A stretch of 64,000 nt of DNA from an uncultured Gammaproteobacteria bacterium (GTDB taxonomy: Bacteria > Patescibacteriota > Microgenomatia > JALYQM01): contig CAYOFQ010000001.1 in NCBI GenBank assembly GCA_964403585.1, positions 443,364 through 507,363 of the forward strand, written 5' to 3'. Both the position numbers and the translations under genes were made by a program. Under the pieces are notes generated by a model that saw only the letters and a program-made list of their open reading frames with translations, was not told the origin of the DNA and did no database searches. The stretch's first letter is position 1, and every line of letters begins with the position of its first letter. Below are positions 14,421 to 28,785 of this stretch, piece by piece.

Positions 14421-15254
14421 TTACTCGGTAAACCGGATCAGAAAAGAGCTTACTGTTATCGTTACTGCTCCGATGATCGTAGGTACGGTAATTGGATCCT
14501 GAAAAAAGACTACGCCAAAAATAAACGAACTGATAATCTCCGTGTATGCCAGAAATGAAGCTGTTGATGCTTTAAGCCGCTTGAGTCCGGAGAAAAAGAG
14601 ATAAAAGCCGATTGCACCAATAAGTATCGCATAAAATGAAAGCACACCACTCTGTTGTATTGAGGGTGGAGGGTTACTAAACAAAAAAGGCAGGAATAAA
14701 AACGCTCCTACAACATTCTGGTAAAAAACCGTCTCACCAACCGGTGATTTTTGTAACTGTTTTTTAAACAGCGGCACTGTTGCCGCATATAAAGCTGCTG
14801 CCAACAGTGAGGCCAGCATTCCTTTCACATCATTACTCTCAAAATGAAATGATTTATTCGAAAACATCAGTACGATACCGACAAACGCAATACCGATAAT
14901 CAGCAATTTTTTATATGTTAACCGTTCCCGAAGATAAATCGCGCTAAAAAGTGTTGTAAATAGCGGCCAGGTATAGAGCATGGTGACGGCATTACCTATT
15001 GAAGTCAAAGAATACCCGAGAAAATATAAATACAGGCGCAATCCGTTAATAGATGAAGCTATCAGGAGTGTTTTGTTCAGGCGGCGCCATAAGTTCCGCC
15101 GCTTCACTGTATAGTAAACAAAAAAGAGCAGTGTCGGGACCATTAACCGGAAAAAAGTTATGGTTGTGGAAGGAACATTGAGCCATTTTACAAAGAGCCC
15201 GGCCGTTCCCCAAATAATCCCCGCGATGATAATCTCCACATACGGGTTGAGCAT
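14421..15254 (-). CDS. EamA/DMT-family transporter
   Basis: 277 aa, ~10 TM, two EamA-like halves. Confidence 0.6.
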   Translation of the reverse strand: MLNPYVEIIIAGIIWGTAGLFVKWLNVPSTTITFFRLMVPTLLFFVYYTVKRRNLWRRLNKTLLIASSINGLRLYLYFLGYSLTSIGNAVTMLYTWPLFTTLFSAIYLRERLTYKKLLIIGIAFVGIVLMFSNKSFHFESNDVKGMLASLLAAALYAATVPLFKKQLQKSPVGETVFYQNVVGAFLFLPFLFSNPPPSIQQSGVLSFYAILIGAIGFYLFFSGLKRLKASTASFLAYTEIISSFIFGVVFFQDPITVPTIIGAVTITVSSFLIRFTE

Positions 15255-15317
15255 CTGATAACTATAGCATTAATAAAGTCCAAGAAAAATGATATAAACA
15301 GAGCAAGGAGTTTTAGT

Positions 15318-15818
15318 ATGCAACAAACATCTCACGATAGCGAAACACCCGCACACGGACAGCAGGTTATAACTGCCTGTGCATTTATACACCATAATTT
15401 TGACGGTATCGAAAAAGTTTTTTTACCGAAGCGGGCTGCCGGCAAAAAATTCCTGCCCGGAGTCTACGAGCTCCCCGGTGGACACATCGATTTCGGTGAA
15501 GATATTATCTCCGGTTTGAAACGTGAGATCAAAGAAGAGTTTGCTATGGGGGTAACGATCGGCGATCCTTTTGGCGTATTTACTTACACAAATGAGGTAA
15601 AAGGATCACATTCCATTGAAGTAATCTATTTTGCTTCCTTCACCGATCCGATTGAAAATATTCGGCTTAATCCCGAAGATCATTCGGAATTTGGCTGGTT
15701 CAGGGAAGATGACCTAACCAAAATGCTGTCTGAAAACAAACAGGAAAGTGACCCGGAATTTGTAATTATCAGAAAAGGCTTTGCGTTATTACAGCACAAC
15801 AGCCCCGACTTTGGATGA
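15318..15818 (+). CDS. Nudix hydrolase
   Basis: LPGGHIDFGEDIISGLKREIKEEFAM Nudix box. Confidence 0.75.
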   Translation: MQQTSHDSETPAHGQQVITACAFIHHNFDGIEKVFLPKRAAGKKFLPGVYELPGGHIDFGEDIISGLKREIKEEFAMGVTIGDPFGVFTYTNEVKGSHSIEVIYFASFTDPIENIRLNPEDHSEFGWFREDDLTKMLSENKQESDPEFVIIRKGFALLQHNSPDFG

Positions 15819-15833
15819 ATAAGCCGGCTAGAC

Positions 15834-16121
15834 TTATTTTGGTAAGCTGAAGTAAAAAACCGAACCTTTACCTTTCTCACTCTCAACCCAAATACGACCG
15901 TTATGGCGTAGCACTATTTCTTTGGCGATATATAAGCCCAGACCTAAACCCGGGTACGTTTTGGCTTTTGGATCGTTAACCTGATACAGCCGTTCAAAAA
16001 CCCGGTCTACTTTATCGTGCTCTATGCCGATACCAAAGTCTTTAACAGCAACCGTAATTTCAGAACCCGCATTACTGAGCGAAATAATAATCTTCTCGGT
16101 ACTGGGAGAATACTTAATGGC
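15834..16121 (-). pseudogene. 3' remnant of a sensor histidine kinase (HATPase_c domain only)
   Basis: Minus-strand frame reads …SNAGSEITVAVKDFGIGIEHDKVDRVFERLYQVNDPKAKTYPGLGLGLYIAKEIVLRHNGRIWVESEKGKGSVFYFSLPK* (G1 DxGxG and G2 GLGLGL boxes); no start codon, in-frame stop at 16122-16124; sensor and HisKA parts absent. Confidence 0.7.
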
Positions 16122-16321
16122 TTAACCGAACTTATCTTATTCAGCTTAATTTTATAGCCTGAATCACTGGCATTCGCTAATTCTCCTCGTATAGATTCCT
16201 CAGTAATGGAAGCGGTGGCAAAATCGACAGTTTGTGTAGCTTGACGATCAGCCGTGCAACCAACCAAGAAGAGTATTAATATAGGCACAAAAAGTGCTTT
16301 TTTAAGTATCTGAATTAACAT
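16022..16321 (-). CDS. Small lipoprotein-like ORF (uncertain; overlaps HK remnant in another frame)
   Basis: Signal peptide plus lipobox LFLVGC; the C-terminal half overlaps the histidine-kinase remnant, so it may be spurious or chimeric. Confidence 0.25.
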   Translation of the reverse strand: MLIQILKKALFVPILILFLVGCTADRQATQTVDFATASITEESIRGELANASDSGYKIKLNKISSVKPLSILPVPRRLLFRSVMRVLKLRLLLKTLVSA

Positions 16322-16444
16322 ATACTATCCTTTTTAAATAACTATAGGTTAATATATATTTTATACTATATATAAGGGATTATCAAGAGTAAATGTTAAG
16401 GATAATATGTTGTAGAAAACTGTAGAAAAATCCATAAATAAGCC

Positions 16445-16669
16445 ATGCTTTCAAGAACTAAGTTCATGGAAATAATGGGAAATAACATCAAAAGCGTACG
16501 TACAAAGAAGCGTATTTCTCAAGAAGAACTTTCAGCACAATGTGGGTTCTCTCGGACCTATATCAATCTCATCGAATCTGCCAAACTTACCCCATCCTGT
16601 TACAACGTATATCGTATTGCTAAGGCTCTCAATATCACAGTTGATGAGCTTTATCCGTCTACTGTCTAA
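16445..16669 (+). CDS. XRE-family HTH transcriptional regulator
   Basis: …ISQEELSAQCGFSRTYINLIESAKLTPSCYNVYRIAKALNITVDELY (HTH_3). Confidence 0.75.
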   Translation: MLSRTKFMEIMGNNIKSVRTKKRISQEELSAQCGFSRTYINLIESAKLTPSCYNVYRIAKALNITVDELYPSTV

Positions 16670-16703
16670 TCCTTGATATAATACAGCGAGAATTGAACGA
16701 AAA

Positions 16704-17072
16704 ATGAATAATTCGAACTTAAAACCATTCACAGTTAGGGATGATCCTCGAAGGCTTAATGGAAGACCAAAAGGAGCAAAAAACCTAAAAACAATCATTC
16801 GAGAGTTAGAGAATGAAGAGTTTGATTGGAATAAAATCCCGCAGCAGAGTAAAGGATTTAGTCACTATCTAAAAAGAGTTGGCTCTCCTTGGCGAGCCAT
16901 AGTAATGCGAGCAATGCTTGATGCCATTAACGGCAACAAAGATGCAAGAGAATGGCTTACAAAAATAGCTTTAGACGATAAAAGTCAAACCGAAATTGAA
17001 ACTCGAGAACCGATTATTATGAGCAATATTGAACCTAGATTCAATAACCTTAGCTGCCCAGATATCGATTAG
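16704..17072 (+). CDS. Hypothetical phage/island protein (GRPKGAKN motif)
   Basis: 122 aa; RRLNGRPKGAKN motif reminiscent of small phage DNA-binding proteins; no firm family. Confidence 0.4.
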   Translation: MNNSNLKPFTVRDDPRRLNGRPKGAKNLKTIIRELENEEFDWNKIPQQSKGFSHYLKRVGSPWRAIVMRAMLDAINGNKDAREWLTKIALDDKSQTEIETREPIIMSNIEPRFNNLSCPDID

Positions 17073-17074
17073 TT

Positions 17075-17821
17075 ATGACTATTCACTTTATCTACAAGAA
17101 AACAACCAAGTGGGGAATCATAACCGAACTCAGATATATAAATAGCTATGGCGAAATTTATGAAATTGATAAACATGCAATCGAAAAAGTAACATTTAAT
17201 TTTTTAAAAGCATTAATTAAAAATAAAAATTTCGTTCAGGAAATACGTAATATAAGAAAAAACTCAGCTATTCCGTTGGACGGATACGATATTTTAAATA
17301 AGCAAAATAACCCTGATGATAATAGGCCAGGCAAGTGGATCTCGGAATTAAGAAAAAAGATTGACGACAAACTTGTTTTAAAGCTAAAAAAAGACTATAG
17401 AATACCAAACATGTTATATTCTACTTTAAAGGATATAATTTTAATGAATATTGTCCACTTACCTCTTCCTAAAATAGCGTTAGATGTTCCATATATCGGT
17501 TATGAAAATGTTAATCCTGATGCAATAAAAATAGTCATTAATACAAAAGTTGATCCTAAAACATTACATAGATTTATAGATGACAATTGGGAGGATATAG
17601 AGCAAGCGCTTAATAAGGAAGAAAGTAGTGAGATTAAAATCTCTGATAAAGCTCTAAAAATTCTCGAAATGAAGGATAAGGGATTAACGTATACGCAAAT
17701 AATGGATAAATTAAACGAATCTGGACAAGGAGAATATTACGACTCTGGATCAGTTAAACAATTGAACTTTAGAACTAACAAGCAAATTAACTCTCTCTCT
17801 AGTAACAAAAAAAAGCGGTAA
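17075..17821 (+). CDS. Hypothetical Lys-rich island protein with C-terminal HTH-like segment
   Basis: Very AT-rich coding; C-terminal …ISDKALKILEMKDKGLTYTQIMDKLNE… resembles resolvase/sigma-type HTH. Confidence 0.4.
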   Translation: MTIHFIYKKTTKWGIITELRYINSYGEIYEIDKHAIEKVTFNFLKALIKNKNFVQEIRNIRKNSAIPLDGYDILNKQNNPDDNRPGKWISELRKKIDDKLVLKLKKDYRIPNMLYSTLKDIILMNIVHLPLPKIALDVPYIGYENVNPDAIKIVINTKVDPKTLHRFIDDNWEDIEQALNKEESSEIKISDKALKILEMKDKGLTYTQIMDKLNESGQGEYYDSGSVKQLNFRTNKQINSLSSNKKKR

Positions 17822-18069
17822 CATTTGTTACACCAACATAAATTACTCCCTTTAAACTTATTCTCAGGTAATGTGTACTGGAATGACAACCCAGCAAGCA
17901 AAAGAATTACTTAACAAAACGGGCGTTACACTTGATGACGAAGAAATAGAAAAAATCATCATTTGTTTCAATCAAATTATTGAAATTGGATTCGAATTGT
18001 ATGAAGCGCAACAAGTTGAAAAAGAATGATTATCTTGTAAATTTCATACCCTCGCTTGATAATGATGCC

Positions 18070-19653
18070 ATGAAAAAATACGCTATTGCGTACATACGAG
18101 TAAGCTCCGAAGAGCAAATCACTAACTTTAGTTTAGAAAATCAAAAAGAGTACTGTGTAAAAGAGGCTCATCGGCAAGGCTTCGAAATAGTGGAAATATT
18201 TAGAGAAGAAGGTGTAAGCGCAAAAGATCTAAATCGTCCTCAAATGATTCGTTTATTTGAATATTGCAGAAAATACAAGGGTAAAATTTCAACATTATTT
18301 ATTTACAAAATCGATCGAATTTCTCGTAATACTTTAGACTTCCTTTCTTTAAAGAAAAGATTAGCGGGATACGGAATAAGGGTCATCCCTGTTACCGAAC
18401 AAACCGAAGATAATCCGGCAGGTGAATTTATAGAAACTATGTTAGCAGCTAATGCCACTATGGATAATGCGACGAAAAGTATTCGTACATTAGATGGTAT
18501 GAAGAAGCGGGTCGAATCTGGATATGCTTTAGGCAGACCTAGAGTAGGTTATATTGTTTCAAATATAGAAGGTGACAAAGCTCATAATCCAGACCCTGAA
18601 CAATTTCATCTAGTTAAAAAGGCATGGATAGAAATGTCGACTGGAACATATACATTAGAATCCATAATTCCAGTAATGCAAAAACTTGGAATAGTAATAA
18701 AAATTGGAAATAGAAGAATACCTATAACTAGGAACCAACAAACACAAAGAATCTTTAGAGACAAATATTATGCAGGGTATGTGGTAAGTAATAAGTTCAA
18801 GATAAATAAAATTGGCAATCACTCGCCCATGATAAGTGAGGAATTATATTATAAAGTTCAAGGAATTATAGATAGGAGATCTTACTCTGCGGGTGTTAGC
18901 CATAATAAGCAAAACGAAGATTTCCCTTTAAGAGGCGTACTATGCGGTGAGTGCGGTAAACCAATGACAGGATCGTGGAGCCGGGGTAGAAAGAATAGGT
19001 ATGCGTACTATTATTGTGGTCAAGGTAGGCACAAGGCTCCATCAATTCCAAAAGATCAATTTGAGAGCGAGTTTGTCGACTGTTTACTGCAAATTCAACC
19101 CAAGAAAGAGTTTATATCTTTATTTAGTGCAATGCTAAAAGAAAAATGGGAAAGTAGATATCAGTATCTAAAGGACTTAAAAAAAGCTGCTGAAAGAGAA
19201 CTTGATGCATTGTATGAAGCACGGAGGAGACTTGTGGAGAAAAACCTGTCAGGCTTATATTCTGATGAAATTTTTCAAGAACAACTTACACTGATAGAAG
19301 ATCAAATATTAGTTAAAAAGATATCAAAATCTGAAACTGAGTTAGACGAGATTGATATAGATACTATTGTAAATTTTATGAATAATTTCTTAGCAAATAT
19401 TCATAAAGCATGGATCGATGGAAACTTATATCAGAAAAGAGTTCTATTCGGTTCTATATTCCCCAAAAACATTACTTACACAAAAGAAGGATATAGAACC
19501 ACGGAAATAGGGCTTCCATTCAGGTTAATCAGTGAATTGGAAGATACTTCTACCTCGTCGTGGGTCAACTGTTGGACAAACTTCGTACCTCCTTCGTACA
19601 GTATACTAGCCTCTATCCAATACCCTCCTACGCCCCAGTTGTATAACACGTAA
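18070..19653 (+). CDS. Large serine recombinase (integrase)
   Basis: MKKYAIAYIRVSSEEQ catalytic Ser motif, …IYKIDRISRN…, recombinase domain, CGECGKPMTG…YYYCG zinc ribbon, C-terminal coiled coil; the ORF extends upstream to 17980 but the catalytic motif favours the 18070 start. Confidence 0.8.
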   Translation: MKKYAIAYIRVSSEEQITNFSLENQKEYCVKEAHRQGFEIVEIFREEGVSAKDLNRPQMIRLFEYCRKYKGKISTLFIYKIDRISRNTLDFLSLKKRLAGYGIRVIPVTEQTEDNPAGEFIETMLAANATMDNATKSIRTLDGMKKRVESGYALGRPRVGYIVSNIEGDKAHNPDPEQFHLVKKAWIEMSTGTYTLESIIPVMQKLGIVIKIGNRRIPITRNQQTQRIFRDKYYAGYVVSNKFKINKIGNHSPMISEELYYKVQGIIDRRSYSAGVSHNKQNEDFPLRGVLCGECGKPMTGSWSRGRKNRYAYYYCGQGRHKAPSIPKDQFESEFVDCLLQIQPKKEFISLFSAMLKEKWESRYQYLKDLKKAAERELDALYEARRRLVEKNLSGLYSDEIFQEQLTLIEDQILVKKISKSETELDEIDIDTIVNFMNNFLANIHKAWIDGNLYQKRVLFGSIFPKNITYTKEGYRTTEIGLPFRLISELEDTSTSSWVNCWTNFVPPSYSILASIQYPPTPQLYNT

Positions 19654-19747
19654 TGCGCTCTCCTGCACAAAAGGGTTAAAGCGGGTGACAATGGATATAT
19701 CAGAAACGCCCTTGTTTGTTGATGCTTTACATAGTATTACAGAGTAA

Positions 19748-21487
19748 ATGAAGCTTCGTCATCTGTCGATTAAAAACTTTAGAGGTATAAAGACGCTCGA
19801 CTGGAATATAGCCGAAAGCTTCGTGTGCCTATTAGGTGCAGGCGATTCGACTAAATCAACCATCTTGCTAGCCATTGAATACGTGCTATACCCTAACTTC
19901 GCACTATATATCCAAGATGCCGATTTCCATAATCAAGAGGTTGACACTCCAATAGTTATCACCGCCACCATAAGTGATATCCCTGATGATCTTACTAACG
20001 AAAAGAAGTTTGGACTAAGATTAAGAGGCTGGAACCCTATTGATTACACTACTCATGATGAGCCCTTTGAAGGAGATGAAAAAGCGCTAACGATACAACT
20101 CCTAGTAAGCAGCACGTTAGAACCACACTGGAGTGTGATTACAGAAAGGCATGCAGAAGGAGCAGCAATATCACACATTGATAGAGAAAAGCTAGGTGCT
20201 TCTCCGATAGGAACATTTCTAGAACGAGATTTATCATGGTCAAGGGGATCACCTTTACTTCGTTTAACAGGTAATCTAGATAATGCGGATCAAATAATGT
20301 TGTCTGCACGAAGAGGCTTAGGTCAGAGCATGCTAGCCAATCAGCAGACGAAAACTTGGGTAGAACAATGTACAAGTATAGGAGAAGTCGCTAAATCTAT
20401 TGGTGTCCACCCTAAAAATAATCTTATACCATCCCTTGATTTTAAGTCACTTTCTAATCTAAACTCAACACTCACACTATATGATGGAAACATACCGACG
20501 CGACAATACGGGCTTGGGAGCAAACGACTTTTAAACATGTCGATTCAACAGCAAAGTGTAAGTAATGGTGCACTGATACTGGTGGATGAGATTGAACATG
20601 GGCTCGAACCGCATAGGTTAAGGCATTTAATAAGGTATCTTAGGAGATCCTTATCCATCGTCGATTCCACTCGTATCGGTCAGGTAATATTCACCACTCA
20701 TTCAAGTACAAGTATAGTTGAGAGCAAGGCTAAAGAGTTACACTGTGTTATAGATAATGAAGGTGAAATAACGATAGTACAAGTCGGACAATCAATTCAA
20801 GATAAGGTTAGGCGGTGTCCAGAAGCACTTCTAGGAAGGAAAATAGTTATAGGTGAAGGTAAAACTGAATTTGGTGTAATCCGAGGGCTTGATATTGCCT
20901 GGGAGGCAGACGGTGATACCTGCTTTGGTACTTTAGGTATTGTTCCAGTAGATGGTGGTGGTTATACAGTAGCGCCATCTATTGCTATTGAGTTCGCTAA
21001 ACTTGGTTATCAAGTAGCTGTAATGGTTGATAGTGATCAGTCTATAAGTGATGAGCATCGAAAAGGTATTGAACTCCATAAAATATGTTTAATAGAGTGG
21101 GAAGATAAAACTAGCATCGAAGAAAGATTCTTCTTAGATATGCCGTGGTCTATGGTAAAAGAAGAACTGAGATACATAATAGAGAATCACCCAGATACGA
21201 ATAGGCTAAGCATTATACAGGCCATTATGGTGCAGCTCAATATAACAGGGTCTCCTAAAGATTGGGATATAGACCTAAATCTATGGATTGATAAAGGAAA
21301 AGAGGAGAATGACTTAAGGATAGCACTCGGTAAAGCCGCACACAAAGGATCTTGGTATAAACACCCAAACACAGGCATAGATTTAAGCCAACCCTTAGGA
21401 CATAAAATTGGATTATCCTTACATGACATGAAGGGAACCGATACTTACAATAAACTACTTAAATTGAAACACTGGTTATATGAGTGA
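19748..21487 (+). CDS. gajA: Gabija GajA-like OLD-family ATPase/TOPRIM nuclease
   Basis: N-terminal MKLRHLSIKNFRGI, P-loop GAGDSTKST, Walker B/LH region LVDEIEHGLEPHRL, C-terminal TOPRIM IVIGEGKTEFGV…VAVMVDSDQ; 579 aa; 8-bp overlap with the downstream helicase gene. Confidence 0.75.
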   Translation: MKLRHLSIKNFRGIKTLDWNIAESFVCLLGAGDSTKSTILLAIEYVLYPNFALYIQDADFHNQEVDTPIVITATISDIPDDLTNEKKFGLRLRGWNPIDYTTHDEPFEGDEKALTIQLLVSSTLEPHWSVITERHAEGAAISHIDREKLGASPIGTFLERDLSWSRGSPLLRLTGNLDNADQIMLSARRGLGQSMLANQQTKTWVEQCTSIGEVAKSIGVHPKNNLIPSLDFKSLSNLNSTLTLYDGNIPTRQYGLGSKRLLNMSIQQQSVSNGALILVDEIEHGLEPHRLRHLIRYLRRSLSIVDSTRIGQVIFTTHSSTSIVESKAKELHCVIDNEGEITIVQVGQSIQDKVRRCPEALLGRKIVIGEGKTEFGVIRGLDIAWEADGDTCFGTLGIVPVDGGGYTVAPSIAIEFAKLGYQVAVMVDSDQSISDEHRKGIELHKICLIEWEDKTSIEERFFLDMPWSMVKEELRYIIENHPDTNRLSIIQAIMVQLNITGSPKDWDIDLNLWIDKGKEENDLRIALGKAAHKGSWYKHPNTGIDLSQPLGHKIGLSLHDMKGTDTYNKLLKLKHWLYE

Positions 21488-22895
21488 AAACAGTATAGAG
21501 ACTATTATTAACGCTAAACGTGCTGCAATAGTAGCACCTGCTGGTTGTGGAAAGACTGAAACAATAGTAAAAGCTGTCGCAATTTCACCAGGAACGCAAC
21601 TTGTACTAACACATACTCATGCTGGTGTCGATTCACTTCAAAATAGGTTTAAAAAACATCAAGTAAATCACGAAAAATACAGGGTAGACACAATAGCAGG
21701 ATTCGTAACACGTTATATAGAAGCATATCCTGTCATGAGTGGCTGGATTGAAGTTAAGGGAGAGAAGAATAACTGGAACTATATGTATGAAGCTATGTCA
21801 CAATTGCTAGTTAATAGCATCATAAGGAAAGTTATACAGCGAACATATCAAGGTATATATATTGATGAATACCAGGATTGCACCTTAAGACAGCATTTTG
21901 TGTGTGATCAACTCGCCAACATCATACCATGCAGAGTCTTCGGAGACCCCTTGCAAGGGATTTTTGATTTTAATGATCAAATAGTCCAATGGGACACACA
22001 TGTATTTTCGTCATTCGACAAACTTGTTGAGTTGCAAACGCCTTGGAGATGGTACAAGTCGACAAATGAACCTGACAAGAGACTCGGGAATTGGCTGCTT
22101 GACTGTAGAGAGCATCTACTAAATGGCTGGCCAATAGACCTACAGCAAGCGCCACGAGATTCAGTTACCTGGGTAGATTCGAGTAAGGATGGGTATCTGT
22201 CTCTTATTCGGCAGTGTCGTCTATTGTTAAATGTTAGTGGGAACGTTATGGTTTTATTGAATCAGGATAAACAGTGCCATAGTCTGGCTCGTAGCCTTAG
22301 TGGAAAGTATCAATCAATGGAAGAAATGGAGTCGAGAGCACTTAAAAAATATAGTAAGCTACTTGATGATACTACGGGCCAAAAGCGGGTTTGTGTCATC
22401 ATAGATTTTGCTGTCGAATGCATGACCGAATCAACAGTATTAAAAAAAATACGCGAAGCTTTTATTGAAGGCAAACAATACAAGCTGCAAAAGAAGTATC
22501 CTCAACTTTTAATCCACCTTGAAGCTGTAATAGCTGCTGACAGCTGGTCGAATGTTCTTGCTGCTATTGATGGAATAGCTGCCTACATTAACGGTAACAT
22601 TTTTCGTAGAGAACTATGGAGTGAAATGAAACGAGCTTTGTTGTATGCAGAACAAAACCAGTCAACAAGCTTGCAGGAGAGTGCAGAATATGTAAGGGGC
22701 AGAACACGACTAATAGGTAGGTACATGCACTCACATATGATGTCACGCACTCTTTTGATTAAAGGACTTGAGTTTGATCATGTTGTTATTGCTGATGCTG
22801 AAAGCATGAATAAAGAAAATTTGTACGTTGCGCTTACACGGCCTAAGCATCAGCTTATAATCTTATCCAAAACTCCTATGCTACAGCCAAGGTAG
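21480..22895 (+). CDS. gajB: Gabija GajB-like UvrD-family helicase
   Basis: Walker A APAGCGKTE, IYIDEYQD (motif II), FGDPLQGIF, C-terminal VALTRPKHQLIILS; 471 aa. Confidence 0.7.
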   Translation: MSENSIETIINAKRAAIVAPAGCGKTETIVKAVAISPGTQLVLTHTHAGVDSLQNRFKKHQVNHEKYRVDTIAGFVTRYIEAYPVMSGWIEVKGEKNNWNYMYEAMSQLLVNSIIRKVIQRTYQGIYIDEYQDCTLRQHFVCDQLANIIPCRVFGDPLQGIFDFNDQIVQWDTHVFSSFDKLVELQTPWRWYKSTNEPDKRLGNWLLDCREHLLNGWPIDLQQAPRDSVTWVDSSKDGYLSLIRQCRLLLNVSGNVMVLLNQDKQCHSLARSLSGKYQSMEEMESRALKKYSKLLDDTTGQKRVCVIIDFAVECMTESTVLKKIREAFIEGKQYKLQKKYPQLLIHLEAVIAADSWSNVLAAIDGIAAYINGNIFRRELWSEMKRALLYAEQNQSTSLQESAEYVRGRTRLIGRYMHSHMMSRTLLIKGLEFDHVVIADAESMNKENLYVALTRPKHQLIILSKTPMLQPR

Positions 22896-23890
22896 TGCGC
22901 AATCTCTATTCCATATCTTCCTATGCTCCAGTGGTATAGCACCACCCCGGTAGACACCCCCAAATATACAAAAACGGGTCAGGCCCCTCGACTTACTATA
23001 TAAAACACAAGCACCCACCCCCGCCTTAAGTACTGGTACCTCTTTAGAAAGACGGTACTATCCACTACCATAATGTTATATTAGGGAGAGGAGTGTCAAA
23101 CGATTGTTTAGATTGGATCAAAATACAGCAGAAGTTATCCTGGGATACCCCGGCTGAGCCCAGAAAAAGAACTGAGTTCAAATACGGGAAAACTTCGGTT
23201 GTTTCTATATCAAACTATATCACATCGAAGTTTGGTATCTTGCGGATAACCAGAGCTTGTTTATCGGTACAGCTGCTAATCAAACCTATGTTCCTTTAGA
23301 TGCGGTGGGATGAAACTCGGGGTTCTGCATTTTTCGCCCGTCCTTAGCTCTGAGTTCTTACAACGTTTTGTTGCGTCCCCGGCATAGCTTTGCCGTAAAG
23401 GCTAACTCAGGTCAGATAGCCACTATCCACTCACAAGATTCAACTCTAACCATCAACTGCTTTTGCAGTATCCCAGTCGGGTGACACTTCTGCCATTATT
23501 CCACTTTGCTAGAGTTGCTGTCGGTCCTGTTTATCCCGTCATGCACCGAATGTTGGACGGATCTAAAGTGCTTGTTTCCGTTTAAGATTTGGGGGCGGTT
23601 GTCGTTATCTGCTATCGGAGAAAAGTCAGGTATCGTCGGGGACAACCATTCATGTTTATGAAGATAACTTAGCATACACTCTGGAAGATGTCAAAATGGG
23701 ATAGTCATAACAAGCGATTGTTGTAGTTTCGGCTTCGTTTTGCCTTCATCAGATAAGGATTCGTTGAACCTTATAACTACCTCCCTACTACCTAGCGCAA
23801 ACATTGTCTTTAAAATCATGGTGCCACAAGGGCGACCACAACTCAAAACTTTGTCTGCGGTAAGCAGTAGGGAGGCAGTCAGATCAAATC

Positions 23891-24337
23891 CTAGCCGCAG
23901 CTCGTGACCTCGACTGTGAAGTCGGTGCCAGGGAGACGGCCACTCGGCGCGGTGAAGGCGACGGAGATACCGTAGTCGTTATCGGAAACGAACGAGATCC
24001 GGTCAGCGGATGCGCCGCGCACGGGGAACGGAGAGTCGAGCTGGTACAGCGGGAAGTCGCTTGTCATGCGCTTGGCCTTCACGCCATTGACGCTGAACGG
24101 TGACAGCCCGGTGTAGTTAGCCATCACTGGCTTAGTGTGGCCGGTGATGAGCACCTCGTCGCCCGTATGAAGTGATTGGTCGATGCGGGGCGCAGCGGCC
24201 GCCGTAGGGTCGTTCGTCAGGGTTGTGATCGTTGTCGGGCAACCGCCACCGCCGTCAGCGAGTGCCGAGGGGGCGAAATACACAGCCGACGCGGCGAGCA
24301 TGGCGATGAGCGACAGGGTTGCGATGAGCTTACGCAT
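23891..24337 (-). CDS. Secreted hypothetical protein, GC-rich xenolog
   Basis: Signal peptide MRKLIATLSLIAMLAASAVYFAPSALA; coding sequence visibly GC-rich relative to flanks. Confidence 0.55.
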   Translation of the reverse strand: MRKLIATLSLIAMLAASAVYFAPSALADGGGGCPTTITTLTNDPTAAAAPRIDQSLHTGDEVLITGHTKPVMANYTGLSPFSVNGVKAKRMTSDFPLYQLDSPFPVRGASADRISFVSDNDYGISVAFTAPSGRLPGTDFTVEVTSCG

Positions 24338-25392
24338 TGTTATCTCCTTGTGGTATTGAACTCAAAGACAGACGTTAGAAAGCAGGAGTGCTTCCTAGTT
24401 GCGGCATACGCAACCTTTCTGACCTATTTTCATAGGCTTTCTCTTTACTATTTGGGACACTTCAGATAGAAACAGAGCAGTTTTTATCTCAAATGTCCCA
24501 ACTAGTTAGGGAGGACTTATCTTCCTATTGCTTACATAGATAGTAGGGAATTGTTGGAGCTTTGAACTTATTATGCTTTACCTCTAAGGCGATGATTGGG
24601 CGTCTATTTGGCTTAGCAAGCTCAAGGCTCCAATTTTCCCTACTAAAATAGTTTTAAGGTACTAGCTTACTTGAAGTAAGCTTAGCTCATAAGAATTATG
24701 CTCAGAGTGAGCCTAGTTGCTTTACGAGCAGCCTATATAATACCACATCTCATCAAAAAATACTATAGGATATAATACATAGAGTATAAAATATACTCAT
24801 TTAAACTATTGATTGTTCGCTATCGGTTACTTGAAGTATTTGCTGTAGCAGGCATTTTGTTCGCTACTAATTGAACTTGTACACGCACTTATGCATGTTG
24901 TGTCACGCTACAACCTTTGTCACACTCATCCACTTTTCTCTTGGCATCACTCAATCACATGTCATAGAGAAGGTTCTTTACGTGTCCTATTTCACGCTTG
25001 CCAATATTATTGCAGCACTTAAAGCTGATCCCCAAGACATTCTTCCGCTCGCGTAGTATTACCTATTGACTATCATCAGTCCTCTTAGTACCCTAGCAAC
25101 AATTAAGAGAAAAAGATCCGGCAAGAGTTACATCTGAATACATTGCGTACTAATTCTTCCTAAACAGCAGAACAACCTAGGCGTCCATACACTTGAACGC
25201 GCGAAGGGGGGAAACCTTAATACCAGTACTGTTTAGTTGCAAGAGGTGTACTTCTCATTAAAAGCATCGCGTTACAGACACGCGTTGGAGAAGTATGCCT
25301 CTTTTTTGTTATTTCCGCCTCACGCCTTACAGTTGTCATGATCCTCCCTAAGTCATTGTGCTGCTTATTTTTATCACTACGAAAGGGCATAT

Positions 25393-25806
25393 ATGAAAAA
25401 TAGTACATGTGTTATTTACCTCAGAACTTCAAATCCAGAAGAGTCGTCATACGACGCTCAACAAAAGATCTGCGAAAAGTATGCTCGAGAGCACAGAATG
25501 TCCGTAAGGGCTGTGTTTAAAGATGAGACATCGACGATAAGAATACAACAAAGCGCAGTGTTTAATGAGATGCTTAAATTCATCGAAGATCACCAGATCG
25601 ACCATATCGTGGTTGCACATGCTGATAGACTAGCGCGTAAGCTGATAGATGCAATATTGCTTGATGAGTTAGTTGCATCAAAGGGAGCCTCCATCAAAGC
25701 TGTGGAACACTTCAAACGATCTGTAAAAGAAAGATATATCGTACATTCGCTGCTTGCAGATTATTATGCAACACAATTACAGGATAGAAACGAGGTGAGC
25801 ATTTAG
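25393..25806 (+). CDS. Serine recombinase catalytic-domain-only protein (truncated resolvase)
   Basis: CVIYLRTSNPEES…HIVVAHADRLAR resolvase N-domain; no DNA-binding domain; 137 aa. Confidence 0.55.
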   Translation: MKNSTCVIYLRTSNPEESSYDAQQKICEKYAREHRMSVRAVFKDETSTIRIQQSAVFNEMLKFIEDHQIDHIVVAHADRLARKLIDAILLDELVASKGASIKAVEHFKRSVKERYIVHSLLADYYATQLQDRNEVSI

Positions 25807-26169
25807 TGTGCTAGTTATGAAGGGGGTCAGAGTAAGCTACTTCTCTGACCCTTATGATCGTACTGTAGCTTTTACTGAAAAAGATAGCCTCTGGCAGTGC
25901 GGATAGTTGATCTTGAAACATAATAAGTCCAAGCGTAACTCGTAACAGTATTAAGCGTGTACTTCTCTTTTCGTTATTTTCAACGCAATAAGGAGTACAT
26001 TACATGTTTACCGACGAAGAGTTATCTCGTTTCCGTGAACTATATCTTCTACATCACGGAACATTATTGTCAGAAGAAGAAGCGTTAGCTATCGCTACAC
26101 CCCTCAGTGAATGCTTTAAGGCCATTGCGAAACCATTTATACGGCCATACAATGCAAAGGAGAAACAAA

Positions 26170-27966
26170 ATGATGAATGAAATAGAACAGCCAGTAGAAT
26201 ATAAACGTCGTTCCAGTGATGACGATCATCAGATCGCAAGCATACCTTCTCAAGAGCGGGCTTTGAGAGACGGTATCCCCAACTATTCAAAGCTTGCATT
26301 TATAAAAAAGTTTGAGGAGAGTAAATCAGCTAAGAAACCAGGTAGACCATTCTTTAATGAGATGGTCGAGTTGCTTGAGTCGGGCAAAGCAAAGAGCATT
26401 GTGGTGTGGCATCTTAACCGCCTTGCACGTAACCCTGTTGATGGTGGACGCATAATCTGGGTAGTACAAAATTACGGTGTAAAGATTCACACGCCAGGCA
26501 AGACGTATACAAAGGACGAGCTTATTCTGTTGTATGTCGAGTTTGGCATGGCTAATCAATTTATCAACGATTTGCAGAAAACAACGAAGCGGGGACTAGA
26601 AGATAAAGTCTTATCAAAGCAAGCACCACAACTCGCTCCAGTAGGATACCTCAACAACACACTAAAGCGGCAAGGGGAACGTGACATTATTTCAGATGAA
26701 AAGCGATTTAATACGGTGAGAAAGATGTGGGACCTACTTCTCTCGGGCAACTACAACCCAAAGCAGATCTTCCTTATTGCAAAGGACGAGTGGTGCTTTA
26801 CTTGTAAAGACGGTCATCCTCTTTCTCGTTCCCGAATTTACGAGATGTTTCGAAACCCTTTCTATATGGGCAGGTTCAAACGGAATGGCGAAGTGCATGA
26901 CGGTACTCATCCACCGATGGTCACACCTCATGAGTTTTCATTAGCACAAAAGATTTTAGATGGTCATGGCAGACCACGAAAACGCACCAGAGAGATTATC
27001 TATAATCCACTTTTAAAATGTACTTGCGGTTCCAGTGTAACAACGGAAGAACGTTACCGTAAAATCTGCCCATCGTGCCATCACAAATACAATGCAGAAG
27101 TACACGCAAAGTGTCCAAAATGCCTTACAAAGGCTCCAGAAAAGACAACCCACTTCGCATACTGTCACTGTGATAGAGGCAGAGATAGCTCATGCACACA
27201 GCCACATATAACGATCAAAGACCTTGAAAAGCAGATTGATGAACTATTATCAACTATCGAGATACATCCAGATTTTGTTAAATGGGCGATGGATCACTTG
27301 CGGAGAGTTAACGCAGAAGAGGGGAGCTTTGTTCAATCAAAGCTCTCTTCTCTCAATGACCGGATCGTAGCTATTACACGACTTGAAACATTGTTGTTTG
27401 AAAAGTGGGCGAGTGAATCAAACGCTGATGGCAGCCTTATCTCTGATGAGCAATATAAAACACGCAAGAACAACTACGCAGACGAAAAGAAAACCTTACA
27501 CGAACAACTTAATGCTACGCATTACAGTCATGACAACTGGCTCGAAACAGCAGAGAAGACTTTTGTGTTTGCACGAAACGCCCGTTACTGGTTTGCACAA
27601 GGAGACAAGATTCAGAAGAGAGCAATCATACAAGCACTTGGTTCGAACCTGATACTAAAAGATCGAAAACTGCATTTAGATCTGCAAAAACCCTTACAGT
27701 ACATCCAAGAAGCGAAGATTCTGATCGAGTCGGCAAATGATAACTTCGGACCCGCAGATAGTGTAGTAATAAAGGGAAAAAAGTCTGATTTAGACTTTGA
27801 AAATCTCGTTGGGGGTGATCGACGGGATTCGAACCCGCAACCAGCAGCTCCACAAACTGCTGCTCTACCATTGAGCTACGACCACCATAAGTTCACAAAA
27901 AGCCCAGATTTCGGGCTGAACTCACGTGAGAGTATAACAAAATTCCGGGCTAAAGTATATATTTGA
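26170..27966 (+). CDS. Large serine recombinase (integrase) adjacent to tRNA-His
   Basis: MMNEIEQPVEYKRRSSDDDHQ…SIPSQERA catalytic region, VVWHLNRLARN, recombinase domain, Cys-rich zinc-ribbon region (CTCGS…CPSCHH…CPKC), C-terminal coiled coil; the ORF has no stop until 27966 and reads through the antisense tRNA-His, so the true C-terminus is probably near 27800; the upstream 26107 start is probably over-called. Confidence 0.75.
   Translation: MMNEIEQPVEYKRRSSDDDHQIASIPSQERALRDGIPNYSKLAFIKKFEESKSAKKPGRPFFNEMVELLESGKAKSIVVWHLNRLARNPVDGGRIIWVVQNYGVKIHTPGKTYTKDELILLYVEFGMANQFINDLQKTTKRGLEDKVLSKQAPQLAPVGYLNNTLKRQGERDIISDEKRFNTVRKMWDLLLSGNYNPKQIFLIAKDEWCFTCKDGHPLSRSRIYEMFRNPFYMGRFKRNGEVHDGTHPPMVTPHEFSLAQKILDGHGRPRKRTREIIYNPLLKCTCGSSVTTEERYRKICPSCHHKYNAEVHAKCPKCLTKAPEKTTHFAYCHCDRGRDSSCTQPHITIKDLEKQIDELLSTIEIHPDFVKWAMDHLRRVNAEEGSFVQSKLSSLNDRIVAITRLETLLFEKWASESNADGSLISDEQYKTRKNNYADEKKTLHEQLNATHYSHDNWLETAEKTFVFARNARYWFAQGDKIQKRAIIQALGSNLILKDRKLHLDLQKPLQYIQEAKILIESANDNFGPADSVVIKGKKSDLDFENLVGGDRRDSNPQPAAPQTAALPLSYDHHKFTKSPDFGLNSRESITKFRAKVYI
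27810..27886 (-). tRNA. tRNA-His (GTG) with encoded G-1 and CCA
   Basis: Minus strand G-GTGGTCG…anticodon loop TTGTGGA (GTG)…T arm GGTTCGAATCC…CGATCAC-C-CCA; full cloverleaf pairs by hand. Confidence 0.85.
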
Positions 27967-27973
27967 CTCTTAT

Positions 27974-28317
27974 TTACACTTTTCCAAACTCCAGTTTATC
28001 CAGCCGTTTCTCAATTCGGCTCAGGGCAGCCTCTGTTTTTTCCTCAGAGTCTTTGGATTCCGGAGCACCTTTATGTACCAAAAAGCTGGTCAGCACGATC
28101 ATACTAAAAAGCTGCAGGAACTCCGACTGCCAGTTTTCAAAGGTCGCGGAAAGAAAAGCCGGAAGAAAGTTGACCAGATTTGCAGCCTGACCATGAGCGT
28201 TTTCATCCTGGGCAAACTCCAGCCATTGAAAGATCGATTGTCCAATCCAGCTCAAAATAAAGAGAGTTCCGAGTACAATACTTAAGCTGTAATCTTTCCA
28301 GAGTTTCTTAAGGTCCA
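27974..28317 (-). CDS. Small membrane protein (hypothetical)
   Basis: Start MDLKKLW preceded by AGGAGGA RBS; two TM helices. Confidence 0.5.
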
Positions 28318-28460
28318 TAATTCCTCCTCTGAGCAGTAAGTACAAAATTTACAATAGTTATAGTAATAGTATAACATAATAGCACAATATTGGTAAATAT
28401 TTAAATAAGCACAAAAAAACGGCCATTGCTGACCGTTTTAGCATTCAATCGTAGTCAAAC

Positions 28461-28709
28461 TTATTCATCGCCTAAATACGCATCTTCGTCCATAGCGGAA
28501 TCGACATCCTCAGGGGAAATTGTCGGCTCAGGAGTTGGGGTTACCACCGGTTGCACTGCTGCTGCCGAAGAGTCTACCTGAGTAAACGGATCTAAGCTAG
28601 GTCCGCCCGGGGTATAAACAGAAATACCAAGTGCCAGAGTGACCGCTGCACACATACCGACCACAAGCAAGTTTGACCAGCCTGGTCGTGAATCAATATT
28701 TTTTGCCAT
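28461..28709 (-). CDS. Small membrane-anchored hypothetical protein
   Basis: 82 aa, one TM helix, Pro/Thr-rich acidic tail. Confidence 0.4.
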   Translation of the reverse strand: MAKNIDSRPGWSNLLVVGMCAAVTLALGISVYTPGGPSLDPFTQVDSSAAAVQPVVTPTPEPTISPEDVDSAMDEDAYLGDE

Positions 28710-28785
28710 AGAGTCTTAGTCCTTTGTATAAAGTACGATATACTACATCTATAATAACGAAAAACATAGGGGGTATGTCAACTGT

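What the first reader, a model, noticed from the sequence alone, without database searches (positions are those of the whole stretch)
15834..27886. Composite ~11.7-kb integrative island abutting tRNA-His that has deleted most of a histidine-kinase gene
The far end is a start-less 3' fragment of a sensor kinase (HATPase_c only, 15834..16121). Next comes an AT-rich joint with a TGTAGAAAA direct repeat upstream of an XRE repressor. Then follow two AT-rich hypothetical genes, serine recombinase 1, Gabija, about 1 kb without ORFs, a GC-rich secreted-protein gene, another ~1 kb without ORFs, a catalytic-domain-only resolvase, and serine recombinase 2. The 3' end of recombinase 2 runs antisense through tRNA-His(GTG), whose 3' end is at 27810. 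Two independent large serine recombinases suggest tandem or nested insertions at the same tRNA hotspot.
Basis: partly seen in the sequence, partly recalled or inferred. Interest (0 to 1): 0.6.

Follow-up and report, generated by a model that had tools for sequence, protein, structure and literature searches.

The report
Two serine-recombinase islands stacked at tRNA-His
Two mobile DNA islands, one carrying the Gabija anti-phage system, sit one behind the other at the end of a tRNA-His gene; each was put there by a large serine recombinase, a type of enzyme once thought not to target tRNA genes, whose own gene reads backwards into the tRNA.

Summary

- **Older element E1 (16122-19565, 3.4 kb, 34% GC).** It carries XRE, three small genes and recombinase LSR1. 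It has no recognisable left attachment site.
- **Younger element E2 (19566-27816, 8,251 bp).** It carries GajA/GajB, a scrambled cargo stretch, a small catalytic-domain-only resolvase, a 58-aa ORF and recombinase LSR2. It inserted between LSR1 and tRNA-His.
- **Evidence for the order.** Deleting E2 in silico restores, without gaps, the LSR1/tRNA-His junction seen in a related genome (L083). A second genome (L081) carries an E2-type element alone, with the same left arm.
- **Crossover.** attL and attR share only GGGT, which is tRNA positions 71-74. That fits serine-recombinase chemistry and explains why there is no tRNA direct repeat.
- **Family pattern.** Both recombinase ORFs end inside antisense tRNA. 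Of 77 informative LSR2 relatives, 54 overlap an antisense tRNA, and the tRNA type tracks recombinase relatedness.
- **Histidine kinase.** The fragment is real (HATPase_c positions 17-108 of 111). That the island caused the truncation is plausible but not shown.

This is an ordinary defence island whose integrase type is unusual for a tRNA target.

The parts
15834..16121 (-). 3' fragment of a sensor histidine-kinase gene (pseudogene). It begins inside the N-box at '..AIKYSP' and keeps the native stop codon.
   Evidence: HATPase_c profile positions 17-108 of 111, E 4e-22. A stop codon lies directly upstream and there is no HisKA part. GC is 0.42, like the chromosome.
16122..19565 (+). E1: the older, probably immobilised element driven by LSR1 (3,444 bp, 33.8% GC). 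Its right end is fused to the left arm of E2. No left attachment site can be recognised.
   Evidence: GC drops at 16122. L083 9906-11496 matches window 17975-19565 and then runs straight into tRNA-His. The only TGGGT in 15800-16700 lies inside the XRE ORF.
16125..16321 (-). 5' part of a lipoprotein-like ORF (MLIQ..LFLVGC..). It runs out of frame into the kinase fragment, so its 3' end is truncated at the junction near 16122.
   Evidence: ORF 16022..16321 and the junction sequence. No family match.
16411..16429 (+). Two copies of TGTAGAAAA, 10 bp apart, 16 bp upstream of the XRE start. Possibly an operator; not an attachment site.
   Evidence: These are the only two copies in the window, but the count is not significant.
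16445..16669 (+). XRE-family HTH regulator of E1.
   Evidence: HTH_3, E 7.8e-12. PADLOC 'control protein', E 1.6e-14.
16704..17821 (+). Two E1 genes of unknown function, 122 aa and 248 aa.
   Evidence: Only sub-threshold hits, to DUF5681 and RepL. Nothing in PHROGs, NCBIfam or PADLOC.
17871..18029 (+). 52-aa ORF that overlaps the LSR1 start. Small ORFs occupy the same position in L083 (48 aa) and L085 (52 aa).
   Evidence: tblastx L083 9814-10086 against window 17883-18155, 46%. Alignment A4.
18001..19653 (+). LSR1, a large serine recombinase. Native coding sequence ends at about 19565 (..TSTSSWV). The last 29 codons are read from the left arm of E2.
   Evidence: Resolvase, Recombinase and Zn_ribbon_recom domains. 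P0121 is 100% identical over 18001-19650. Removing E2 in silico restores the family C-terminus ..SSWVIDGIRTRNQQLHKLLLYH*.
19562..19565 (.). attL core of E2 (GGGT). It is followed by the conserved P' arm CAACTGTTGGACAAACTTCGTACC, which runs to about 19590.
   Evidence: Homology with L081 starts sharply here. The same arm is found in L081, L107 and L109.
19566..27816 (+). E2: the younger element driven by LSR2 (8,251 bp, 42.4% GC) and carrying Gabija.
   Evidence: It is an insertion relative to L083. Both its ends are shared with L081. Both attachment sites are intact.
19748..21487 (+). GajA (ATPase plus TOPRIM nuclease of the Gabija system).
   Evidence: PADLOC GajA, 8.2e-157, residues 1-578 against profile positions 1-568 of 570. 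AAA_15 and AAA_21.
21480..22895 (+). GajB (UvrD-like helicase of the Gabija system).
   Evidence: PADLOC GajB, 6.3e-139, full length.
22896..25206 (.). Variable, scrambled cargo stretch of E2 with no homology to L081 4756-9022. It holds two ORF-poor blocks, a long hairpin (23776-23879), the GC-rich 148-aa ORF (23891..24337, - strand) and the 3' remnant of E2's XRE gene (24985-25047, + strand).
   Evidence: Homology blocks. ORF list. Residues 50-70 of the L082 HTH protein match 24985-25047 at 71%. Hairpin energy -68.4 kcal/mol, z -9.7. GC 0.633 for the ORF.
25393..25806 (+). 137-aa serine-recombinase catalytic domain with no DNA-binding domain. The catalytic motifs YLRTS and DRLAR are present. 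It is an accessory partner of LSR2.
   Evidence: Resolvase, E 3.3e-16. 78% identical to L081 9212..9625. A 28% identical version with degenerate motifs sits at the same place in L082. Absent from more distant relatives.
26004..26180 (+). 58-aa ORF that overlaps the LSR2 start. Conserved in L081, L082, L084, L105 and L106. A candidate regulator or directionality factor.
   Evidence: 81%, 80% and 40% identity to the L081, L082 and L084 ORFs. Detected in 5 loci. Alignment A4.
26170..27966 (+). LSR2, a large serine recombinase. The element-derived part ends at 27816. From there the ORF is the antisense reading of tRNA-His and its upstream flank.
   Evidence: Resolvase and Recombinase domains. Invariant cysteine clusters in alignment A2. 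91% and 81% identical relatives have the same tRNA overlap.
27813..27816 (.). attR core of E2 (GGGT), which corresponds to tRNA-His positions 74-71.
   Evidence: attL/attR/attB comparison.
27810..27886 (-). tRNA-His(GTG), intact. This is the integration target; its 3' trailer now comes from E2.
   Evidence: ARAGORN. Rfam. Cloverleaf fold. The native 3' end reads TGGGTGATCG in L001 and L083 but TTGGGGGTGATCG in the window, L081 and L082.

Best explanation
The region is a tandem array of two unrelated integrative elements. Each was inserted by its own large serine recombinase (LSR) into the 3' end of the single tRNA-His gene.

**Order of events**
- E1 (XRE, three small genes, LSR1) arrived first. 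Its recombinase gene then ran across its right attachment site into the antisense tRNA, as in the related genome L083.
- E2 (left arm, GajA/GajB, cargo, small resolvase, 58-aa ORF, LSR2) later recombined its attP with the same tRNA positions. It landed between LSR1 and the tRNA.

**Consequences of the second insertion**
- The crossover lies within GGGT, which is tRNA positions 71-74.
- The end of the incoming LSR2 gene replaces the tRNA's discriminator base and trailer, so the mature tRNA is unchanged.
- The insertion swapped the last codons of LSR1 for sequence from E2's left arm. It also destroyed E1's right attachment site, so E1 could only excise after E2 leaves.
- E1 also lacks a recognisable left attachment site. 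This is most simply explained by a later deletion whose other end lies inside the neighbouring histidine-kinase gene.

**Shown:** the anatomy, both E2 junctions, the insertion relative to L083, the conserved left arm, and the family-wide overlap with tRNA genes.

**Inferred:** the exact crossover dinucleotide, the order of events, whether E2 can still move, the roles of the 137-aa resolvase and the ~50-aa ORFs, and the cause of the kinase truncation.
For: 1. **E2 is an insertion.** L083 comes from a related genome with the same right-flank gene order (Ham1, trehalase and onward). Its LSR1 homologue (72% aa) is joined directly to tRNA-His: L083 9906-11496 matches window 17975-19565, and L083 11485-11570 matches window 27805-27890. 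Deleting window 19566-27816 gives a gap-free alignment across that junction (144 of 182 identical). It also restores the LSR1 family C-terminus.
2. **E2 exists on its own elsewhere.** L081 has an E2-type element alone. Homology with the window begins exactly at 19560-19562 (TGGGTCA..) and ends in the tRNA.
3. **The left arm is conserved.** The arm ending ..AAACTTCGTACC follows the core in four independent elements whose LSRs are 44-81% identical.
4. **The attachment sites fit a conservative exchange.** attL and attR share only GGGT. The number of G's also fits: attB has 3, attP 5, attL 3 and attR 5.
5. **LSR2 relatives sit on tRNA genes.** Of 77 informative LSR2-family loci, 54 have a tRNA gene on the opposite strand overlapped by the end of the ORF. 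The tRNA type tracks LSR relatedness: 38 of 54 nearest neighbours agree, against 0.21 expected.
6. **LSR1 relatives do the same.** Many of their C-termini (about 35 of the top 120) read ..SSWVxDGxRTRD.., and 13 run on to LHK.., the antisense of tRNA-His. This was checked on DNA in L083 and L085, and in five distant viral contigs.
7. **Composition.** E1 is 33.8% GC against 42-44% in the flanks.
8. **The site varies between relatives.** A third related genome (L001) keeps the gene order up to the tRNA 3' end and has different genes beyond it.
Against: - No excised circle or free attP junction was found: the exact-pattern scan of metagenome contigs gave 0 hits.
- No strain with an empty site is available.
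- E1's left attachment site and left arm could not be identified in the window or in L083. E1's left limit is therefore defined only by composition and by the truncated genes.
- The left half of the site E2 used is the end of the LSR1 gene, not native chromosome. LSR2 must tolerate a non-native left half-site, and this is untested.
- E2's XRE regulator is a pseudogene, so E2 may no longer be regulated or mobile.
- LSR1 differs from its L083 homologue about as much as the neighbouring chromosomal genes do. E1 may therefore be an old, vertically inherited fixture rather than a recent arrival.
Confidence: 0.85

Rival explanations
1. A single composite element. The whole 11.7 kb, with two recombinases, was acquired in one integration event and moves as one unit, as some elements use two co-operating serine recombinases (for example CcrA/CcrB).
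For: The two LSR genes point the same way, and only one tRNA is involved. A two-recombinase module does exist inside E2, made of the 137-aa resolvase and LSR2.
Against: L083 carries LSR1 alone, fused to tRNA-His. L081, L082, L107 and L109 carry LSR2-type elements alone, and in the three where the left end is on the contig (L081, L107, L109) they have their own left arm. The internal junction at 19562 has the exact form of an LSR2-family attL. GC content differs sharply between the two parts. LSR1 and LSR2 are only 23% identical.
Confidence: 0.06
2. A conserved chromosomal backbone. The recombinases are domesticated or decayed residents and nothing here is an island. The tRNA overlap is an annotation accident caused by the lack of stop codons in antisense tRNA sequence.
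For: LSR1 differs from its L083 homologue (about 69-72% identity) by about as much as the flanking housekeeping genes do (57-77%). No free form was found. E2's XRE is dead.
Against: E2 is absent from L083 at exactly the core. An E2-type element is present in an independent assembly with different cargo. Of 77 informative relatives, 54 abut different tRNA genes in a pattern that follows LSR relatedness, which chance read-through cannot produce. The region beyond the tRNA 3' end differs in all three related genomes.
Confidence: 0.04
3. An assembly artefact. The window comes from a metagenome-type contig, and the E1/E2 junction is a chimeric join between two populations that carry different elements at tRNA-His.
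For: The attL junction at 19562 is seen only in this window. The two elements share a similar short sequence at their recombinase ends: CTCGTCGTGGGT against CTCGTTGGGGGT.
Against: The shared stretch is about 5-10 bp, far below assembler k-mer sizes. The join has precisely the B-core-P' structure expected from recombination, including the G count. The contig is 1.57 Mb, and the LSR1 protein is on record from both NCBI and Logan.
Confidence: 0.03

Closest known systems
Dehalococcoides ssrA-specific genomic islands (DsiB/DsiA integration module; PMC3146451)
   Same: - A large serine recombinase of about 540 aa is co-transcribed with a smaller serine-recombinase protein that has only the catalytic domain and no DNA-binding domain.
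- The recombinase gene lies next to the attachment site.
- The target is the 3' part of a single-copy stable-RNA gene.
- Several islands accumulate in tandem downstream of the target.
- They are mobilisable islands without conjugation or phage genes.
   Different: - The target there is the tmRNA gene (T-loop), not a tRNA.
- Those islands are flanked by a 20-bp direct repeat of ssrA; here only 4 bp are shared.
- Their integration module has six genes (RecF-, ParB- and Mom-like genes) that are absent here.
- Sequence homology between LSR1/LSR2 and DsiB was not tested.
- The small partner is not general in the LSR2 family.
SCC elements with CcrA/CcrB or CcrC (staphylococcal cassette chromosome)
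   Same: - Large serine recombinases insert cargo islands at the extreme 3' end of a conserved housekeeping gene, preserving its function.
- Tandem or composite cassettes occur.
- NCBIfam gives weak, far sub-threshold similarity to the CcrA, CcrB and CcrC models.
   Different: - The target there is a protein-coding gene (rlmH/orfX).
- CcrA and CcrB are both full-length recombinases.
- The scores here (19-81 bits) are far below the curated cut-offs (700-900 bits), so these proteins are not members.
Classical tRNA-gene genomic islands (Islander/TIGER type)
   Same: - Site-specific insertion into the 3' part of a tRNA gene.
- The tRNA is restored by element sequence.
- The integrase gene sits next to the attachment site.
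- Cargo includes defence genes, and tandem arrays form at hotspots.
   Different: - Those use tyrosine integrases and leave a displaced tRNA fragment as a direct repeat.
[quoted passage not shown]
- Here the integrases are LSRs, there is no displaced tRNA fragment, and the crossover is at positions 71-74.
Ralstonia phage phiRSM resolvase-like integrase (Askora et al. 2011, cited as reference 22 in PMC7192596)
   Same: It is a serine-family recombinase that carries out integration and excision. From my own recollection, not checked here, its target is a tRNA-Ser gene.
   Different: It is a small resolvase-type enzyme of a filamentous phage, not a large serine recombinase with recombinase and zinc-ribbon domains. 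It is a single example rather than a broad clade.
Gabija defence system (GajA/GajB)
   Same: Full-length matches to both PADLOC models, with the two genes adjacent and overlapping.
   Different: Nothing unusual. It is the cargo, not the mobility mechanism.

Membership tests
Large serine recombinase (serine integrase) | N-terminal resolvase catalytic domain with the Arg/Ser nucleophile motif | tested here: met
   PF00239 scores: LSR1 8.6e-32, LSR2 2.8e-15. LSR1 has YIRVSSEEQ and LSR2 has YKRRSSDDDHQ. Y11, R13, S15 and Q21 are invariant in alignment A2.
Large serine recombinase (serine integrase) | C-terminal Recombinase domain plus a zinc-ribbon domain | tested here: met
   LSR1 matches PF07508 and PF13408. 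LSR2 matches PF07508 only, but eight invariant cysteines sit in the expected place (C284 to C342). Many LSR2-family hits carry precomputed PF13408.
Large serine recombinase (serine integrase) | Short crossover core with no long direct repeats flanking the element | tested here: met
   attL and attR share only GGGT. No tRNA-derived repeat is present.
Large serine recombinase (serine integrase) | Demonstrated attP x attB recombination and excision | not testable with these tools
   The only proxy was a search for the free attP junction in metagenome contigs, which gave 0 hits.
Tyrosine-integrase tRNA island (Islander type) | Tyrosine recombinase integrase on board | tested here: not met
   No phage-integrase domain was found in any ORF of 16122-27966. 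Both integrases belong to the serine family.
Tyrosine-integrase tRNA island (Islander type) | Displaced tRNA fragment (a direct repeat of the tRNA 3' part) at the far end | tested here: not met
   The best match of the tRNA region elsewhere in 15000-29000 is 10-14 nt, at chance level.
Gabija | Adjacent GajA (ATPase-TOPRIM) and GajB (UvrD-like helicase) | tested here: met
   PADLOC GajA 8.2e-157 and GajB 6.3e-139, both full length, with the genes overlapping by 8 nt.
Two-recombinase integration module (CcrAB / DsiAB type) | An LSR with a co-oriented upstream second serine-recombinase protein | tested here: inconclusive
   Present in the window and in L081 (78% identical). L082 has a version with degenerate catalytic motifs (28% identical). 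It is absent from 80 more distant relatives. Whether LSR2 needs it is unknown.
Two-recombinase integration module (CcrAB / DsiAB type) | Sequence membership in the CcrA/CcrB/CcrC equivalog families | tested here: not met
   NCBIfam scores are 19-81 bits against curated cut-offs of 700-900 bits.
Two-component sensor histidine kinase (intact gene) | HisKA/H-box domain plus a complete HATPase_c domain and a start codon | tested here: not met
   Only HATPase_c positions 17-108 of 111 are present. There is a stop codon directly upstream, and no kinase-like reading frame in any frame upstream.

The most novel reading that the evidence does not exclude
LSR1 and LSR2 may represent large clades of serine integrases that have had little description and that specialise in the 3' ends of tRNA genes (His, Asn, Gly, Tyr, Ser, Gln and others). 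In these clades the attP core sits in the last conserved codons of the integrase gene. Integration then replaces the enzyme's C-terminal tail and its stop codon with host (antisense tRNA) sequence, and points integrase transcription into the tRNA. That swap could act as a built-in switch, distinguishing the integrated from the excised state for directionality or expression control. It could also let successive elements stack at one tRNA, because only the tRNA-side half-site needs to be native.
Probability: 0.25. Interest if true: 0.7.

Novelty: new variant of a known kind. Interest (0 to 1): 0.55.

Why it matters
**For this window.** It turns a vague "island" into two elements defined to the base pair. 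It gives the likely order of insertion, the attachment sites, and a testable prediction that E2 must leave before E1 can.

**More generally.**
- The tools that map tRNA-borne islands look for a tyrosine integrase plus a displaced tRNA fragment. Elements like these have neither, so such tools would miss them or draw their limits wrongly.
- The data here show the association is systematic: 54 of 77 informative relatives overlap an antisense tRNA, and the tRNA type follows recombinase relatedness. Two LSR lineages that are only 23% identical both do it.
- Serine integrases are prized genome-engineering tools because they need no host factors. A natural clade whose targets are universally conserved tRNA 3' ends, with identifiable attP arms, would be a useful source of integrases with predictable landing sites in uncultured or hard-to-engineer bacteria.
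- The case also documents Gabija being carried on such a small element.

Tried and rejected
- **tRNA direct repeats.** None exists. The true internal junction was found by comparison with other genomes instead.
- **Exact-protein look-ups.** Look-ups for the flanking genes, P0121 and P0180 returned nothing. The source record and organism name therefore stay unknown. The nearest labelled relative is a MAG filed as 'uncultured Gammaproteobacteria'.
- **Genome-collection scan with the trehalase.** It gave only one syntenic relative (L001), and that genome has different genes at the site, so no empty site was obtained.
- **Left attachment site of E1.** I searched for core-plus-arm similarity among the window, L083 and L085. 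Only 9-12-nt chance matches turned up.
- **Histidine-kinase homologues.** The search returned only short fragments at 63% identity or less, with no genomic context. It was uninformative about whether the gene is native.
- **Free attP search.** Zero hits in metagenome contigs.
- **Viral contigs.** There are no LSR2 relatives, and LSR1 relatives reach only 31% identity. This argues against a phage identity.
- **Rfam on 15000-29000.** Only the tRNA reached threshold.
- **TGTAGAAAA repeat as an attachment site.** Rejected. It has two copies only, is not significant, and sits at the XRE promoter.
- **Small resolvase as a decayed third recombinase.** Rejected. The gene is intact, its catalytic motifs are present, and it is conserved in L081.
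- **Defence cargo as a family trait.** Not supported. L107 and L109 carry peptidoglycan-binding proteins and unknowns.

Full report
**1.

- tRNA-His(GTG) is at 27810..27886 on the - strand (Rfam). It still folds as a cloverleaf with the histidine-specific 8-bp acceptor stem.
- The minus-strand reading 16121->15834 is the C-terminal part of a histidine-kinase ATPase domain: HATPase_c profile positions 17-108 of 111, E 4e-22. It begins inside the N-box, a stop codon lies directly upstream, and there is no HisKA part.
- From about residue 568 the LSR2 ORF is the antisense translation of the tRNA (..GGDRRDSNPQPAAPQTAALPLSYDHH..).

**2. Boundaries from comparison with other genomes**

Three public loci decide the structure.

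- **L083.** This 99-kb contig comes from a related organism. Ham1, trehalase and the following genes are in the same order, at 57-77% protein identity.
  - It has an LSR1 homologue (72% aa) whose ORF runs directly into tRNA-His. L083 9906-11496 matches window 17975-19565, and L083 11485-11570 matches window 27805-27890.
  - Removing window 19566-27816 (8,251 bp) in silico gives a gap-free alignment across that junction, 144 of 182 identical.
  - The same deletion restores an LSR1 C-terminus (..STSSWVIDGIRTRNQQLHKLLLYH*) that matches the family consensus.
- **L081.** This is an independent assembly whose LSR is 81% identical to LSR2.
  - It shares two blocks with the window. The first is Gabija together with the sequence upstream of it. 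That block starts sharply at window 19560-19562, inside the annotated LSR1 ORF.
  - The second block is the small resolvase, the 54-aa ORF, the LSR and tRNA-His. The middle differs between the two.
- **L082.** Its LSR is 91% identical to LSR2 and it shows the same right end.

So E2 is 19566-27816, and E1 lies to its left.

**3. Attachment sites**

| Site | Sequence |
|---|---|
| attL of E2 | ..CTACCTCGTCGT\|GGGT\|CAACTGTTGGACAAACTTCGTACC.. |
| attR of E2 | ..GAAAATCTCGTTGG\|GGGT\|GATCGACGGGATTCGAACC.. |

- The two sites share only GGGT.
- The arm after the attL core is conserved in L081, and also in two elements whose LSRs are only 44-46% identical to LSR2. These are L107 and L109, where it reads GGGTGACTGGGCG.A..AACTTCGTACC. 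This gives element sizes of 8.3, 10.2, 7.8 and 9.4 kb.
- The native antisense 3' end of the tRNA reads TGGGTGATCG (L001, L083). After an E2-type insertion it reads TTGGGGGTGATCG (window, L081, L082).
- The count of G's (attB 3, attP 5, attL 3, attR 5) is what a conservative exchange within GGGT predicts. GGGT corresponds to tRNA positions 74-71.
- The mature tRNA through C73 is unchanged. Only the trailer is replaced.
- No tRNA-derived direct repeat exists anywhere in the island. That is expected for serine recombinases and contrasts with tyrosine-integrase islands.

**4. The tRNA overlap is a property of both recombinase families**

- *LSR2 family, protein level.*
  - More than 1,400 homologues were found.
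  - Of the best 120, 29 end exactly in WG[GDE].
  - At least 12 run on as ..WGDRRDSNP..PQ..ALPLSYDHH. This is antisense tRNA-His: TGG is antisense CCA, and CCA-CAA is antisense to the GTG anticodon loop.
- *LSR2 family, DNA level.*
  - L081, L082 and L084 all carry the overlap.
  - A metagenome scan with a family alignment returned 80 further loci at 33-48% identity.
  - Together with the window and these three loci, that makes 84 loci, of which 77 have sequence beyond the ORF.
  - In 54 of the 77, a tRNA gene on the opposite strand is overlapped by the ORF end: His 14, Asn 19, Gly 6, Ser 5, Tyr 4, Gln 3, and Lys, Trp and Leu 1 each.
  - Seven more have only a T-arm-like motif, and 16 have nothing.
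  - The nearest tRNA-associated relative has the same tRNA type in 38 of 54 cases, against 0.21 expected by chance.
- *LSR1 family.*
  - LSR1 is only 23% identical to LSR2.
  - About 35 of its top 120 homologues end ..SSWVxDGxRTRD.., and 13 run on to LHK..LY.LSYGH. This is tRNA-His antisense in another reading frame.
  - The overlap is confirmed on DNA in L083 and L085.
  - It is also seen in five distant IMG/VR contigs, at tRNA-Val, His and Asp.
- *Same genome.* Another LSR of the LSR1 family (P0180), elsewhere on the same 1.57-Mb contig, also ends in an antisense-tRNA-like string.

**5. E1 and the histidine kinase**

- E1 (16122-19565) is 33.8% GC, against 42-44% in the flanks.
- Its right attachment site was converted into E2's attL. 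The last 29 codons of the annotated LSR1 ORF are therefore E2 sequence.
- I could not find a left attachment site. The only TGGGT in 15800-16700 lies inside the well-conserved XRE coding sequence. No arm is shared with L083 or L085.
- At about 16122 two minus-strand genes are both cut. A lipoprotein-like ORF loses its 3' end, and the kinase loses everything upstream of the N-box.
- The simplest reading is one deletion that removed E1's left end, the native tRNA trailer and the 5' part of the kinase. That would leave E1 fixed in place.
- This is inference. No empty-site relative and no close full-length kinase were found.
- LSR1 differs from its L083 homologue about as much as the neighbouring housekeeping genes do. 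E1 may therefore be old.

**6. Inside E2**

- Gabija sits next to attL, as in L081.
- The stretch 22896-25206 has no counterpart in L081. It contains:
  - a 104-nt near-perfect hairpin at 23776-23879, with folding energy -68.4 kcal/mol and z -9.7 for the enclosing 131 nt;
  - the GC-rich 148-aa ORF, with no family match in Pfam, PHROGs, NCBIfam or PADLOC;
  - only the last 21 or so codons of the XRE regulator that L081, L082 and L084 keep intact.
- The 137-aa resolvase-domain protein is intact, with the YLRTS and DRLAR motifs, and is 78% identical in L081. In L082 the same position holds a 28% identical version with degenerate motifs. More distant relatives lack it.
- It is therefore a lineage-specific accessory. 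It recalls DsiA of the Dehalococcoides ssrA islands, but it is neither a relic nor a family-wide cofactor.
- An ORF of about 50 aa overlaps the recombinase start in both families. It is a candidate directionality factor or regulator. This is inference only.

**7. How it most likely works**

- In the circular form, the attP core lies in the last codons of the recombinase gene.
- The free-form LSR2 would be 575 aa, ending ..LVGGQLLDKLRTSFVQYTSLYPIPSYAPVV*.
- The LSR pairs attP with the acceptor/discriminator end of tRNA-His and exchanges strands within GGGT.
- The end of the recombinase gene rebuilds the tRNA 3' end. The ORF then acquires a host-encoded tail and stop codon.
- The tRNA-side half-site is regenerated by each insertion. 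A second element with the same target can therefore insert between the first element and the tRNA, which produces the stack seen here.
- E2 keeps both attachment sites and all three genes of its recombination module, so excision is conceivable. E1 cannot excise while E2 is in place, and probably not at all.

**8. Comparison with what is known**

- The closest described system is the family of Dehalococcoides ssrA-specific islands. They have an LSR (DsiB) plus a small catalytic-only partner (DsiA), form tandem arrays, and target the tmRNA gene (PMC3146451).
- SCC elements (CcrAB) are functionally similar, but sequence membership fails the curated thresholds.
- The phiRSM resolvase-like integrase is a small-recombinase precedent (reference 22 in PMC7192596). 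That its target is a tRNA gene is my recollection and was not checked.
- Six full-text searches found no description of LSR clades that target tRNA genes. The library is incomplete, however, and large island and LSR catalogues may already contain such elements.

**9. Verdict**

- The finding is real, and its main interpretation (tandem insertions at a tRNA hotspot) is right.
- As an island it is ordinary: a small defence-carrying element next to an older remnant.
- What lifts it is the integrase type and the family-wide architecture in which the recombinase ORF overlaps the tRNA.
- I rate it a new variant of a known kind, with interest 0.55.

Noticed in passing
window 23765-23895: A 104-nt near-perfect inverted repeat lies directly downstream of the GC-rich 148-aa ORF. 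The enclosing 131 nt folds at -68.4 kcal/mol (z -9.7; 0 of 200 shuffles fold as well). There is no second copy in the window and no Rfam match. It is too long for an ordinary terminator.
   Followed up: partly
window 23891-24337 (-): The 148-aa ORF starts with a signal-peptide-like sequence and is 63% GC, while its immediate flanks are 36-47% and the genome about 42-44%. It has no match in Pfam, PHROGs, NCBIfam or PADLOC. Its origin and function are unknown.
   Followed up: partly
L001 4808-8411 (next to tRNA-His at 8610-8682): In the related genome L001 the same tRNA-His flank holds an AAA ATPase gene followed by an 862-aa S8 subtilase gene, with no recombinase. This may be another cargo module, perhaps a conflict system, at the same hotspot.
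   Followed up: no
L001 8683-8800 and L083 11566-11670: A conserved element of about 110 nt lies just upstream of the tRNA-His 5' end in both relatives. It begins with a 15-nt copy of the tRNA-His 5' end (GGTGGTCGTAGCC..). It is absent from the window, which has a terminator hairpin and an extra 123-aa ORF there. There is no Rfam hit and the predicted fold is weak (z -2.3).
   Followed up: partly
same genome, outside the window (protein P0180): A third recombinase of the LSR1 family (40% identical to LSR1) is recorded on the same 1.57-Mb contig. It ends in ..AGDETRTRDLLLGKETLYH, which looks like antisense tRNA. This genome probably has at least one more island of this kind at a tRNA gene.
   Followed up: partly
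LSR2 family alignment A2 (window 26170-27966, residues 82-89): The motif LNRLARNP is invariant in 20 family members. An asparagine stands where, from my own knowledge, serine recombinases usually have the aspartate of the D-R-x-x-R motif. The stand-alone 137-aa resolvase keeps the canonical DRLAR.
   Followed up: no
L082 1506-1922 against window 25393-25806: The LSRs of L082 and the window are 91% identical. The small resolvase-like genes just upstream are only 28% identical, and the L082 copy lacks the Arg/Ser and DRxxR motifs. This slot seems to be swapped or to evolve very fast.
   Followed up: partly
window 27887-28740: Between tRNA-His and the Ham1 gene the window has about 850 bp, including a 123-aa minus-strand ORF (27974..28345) with its own terminator-like hairpin (27917-27901). 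L083 lacks this stretch, so the 5' side of the tRNA also varies between relatives.
   Followed up: no
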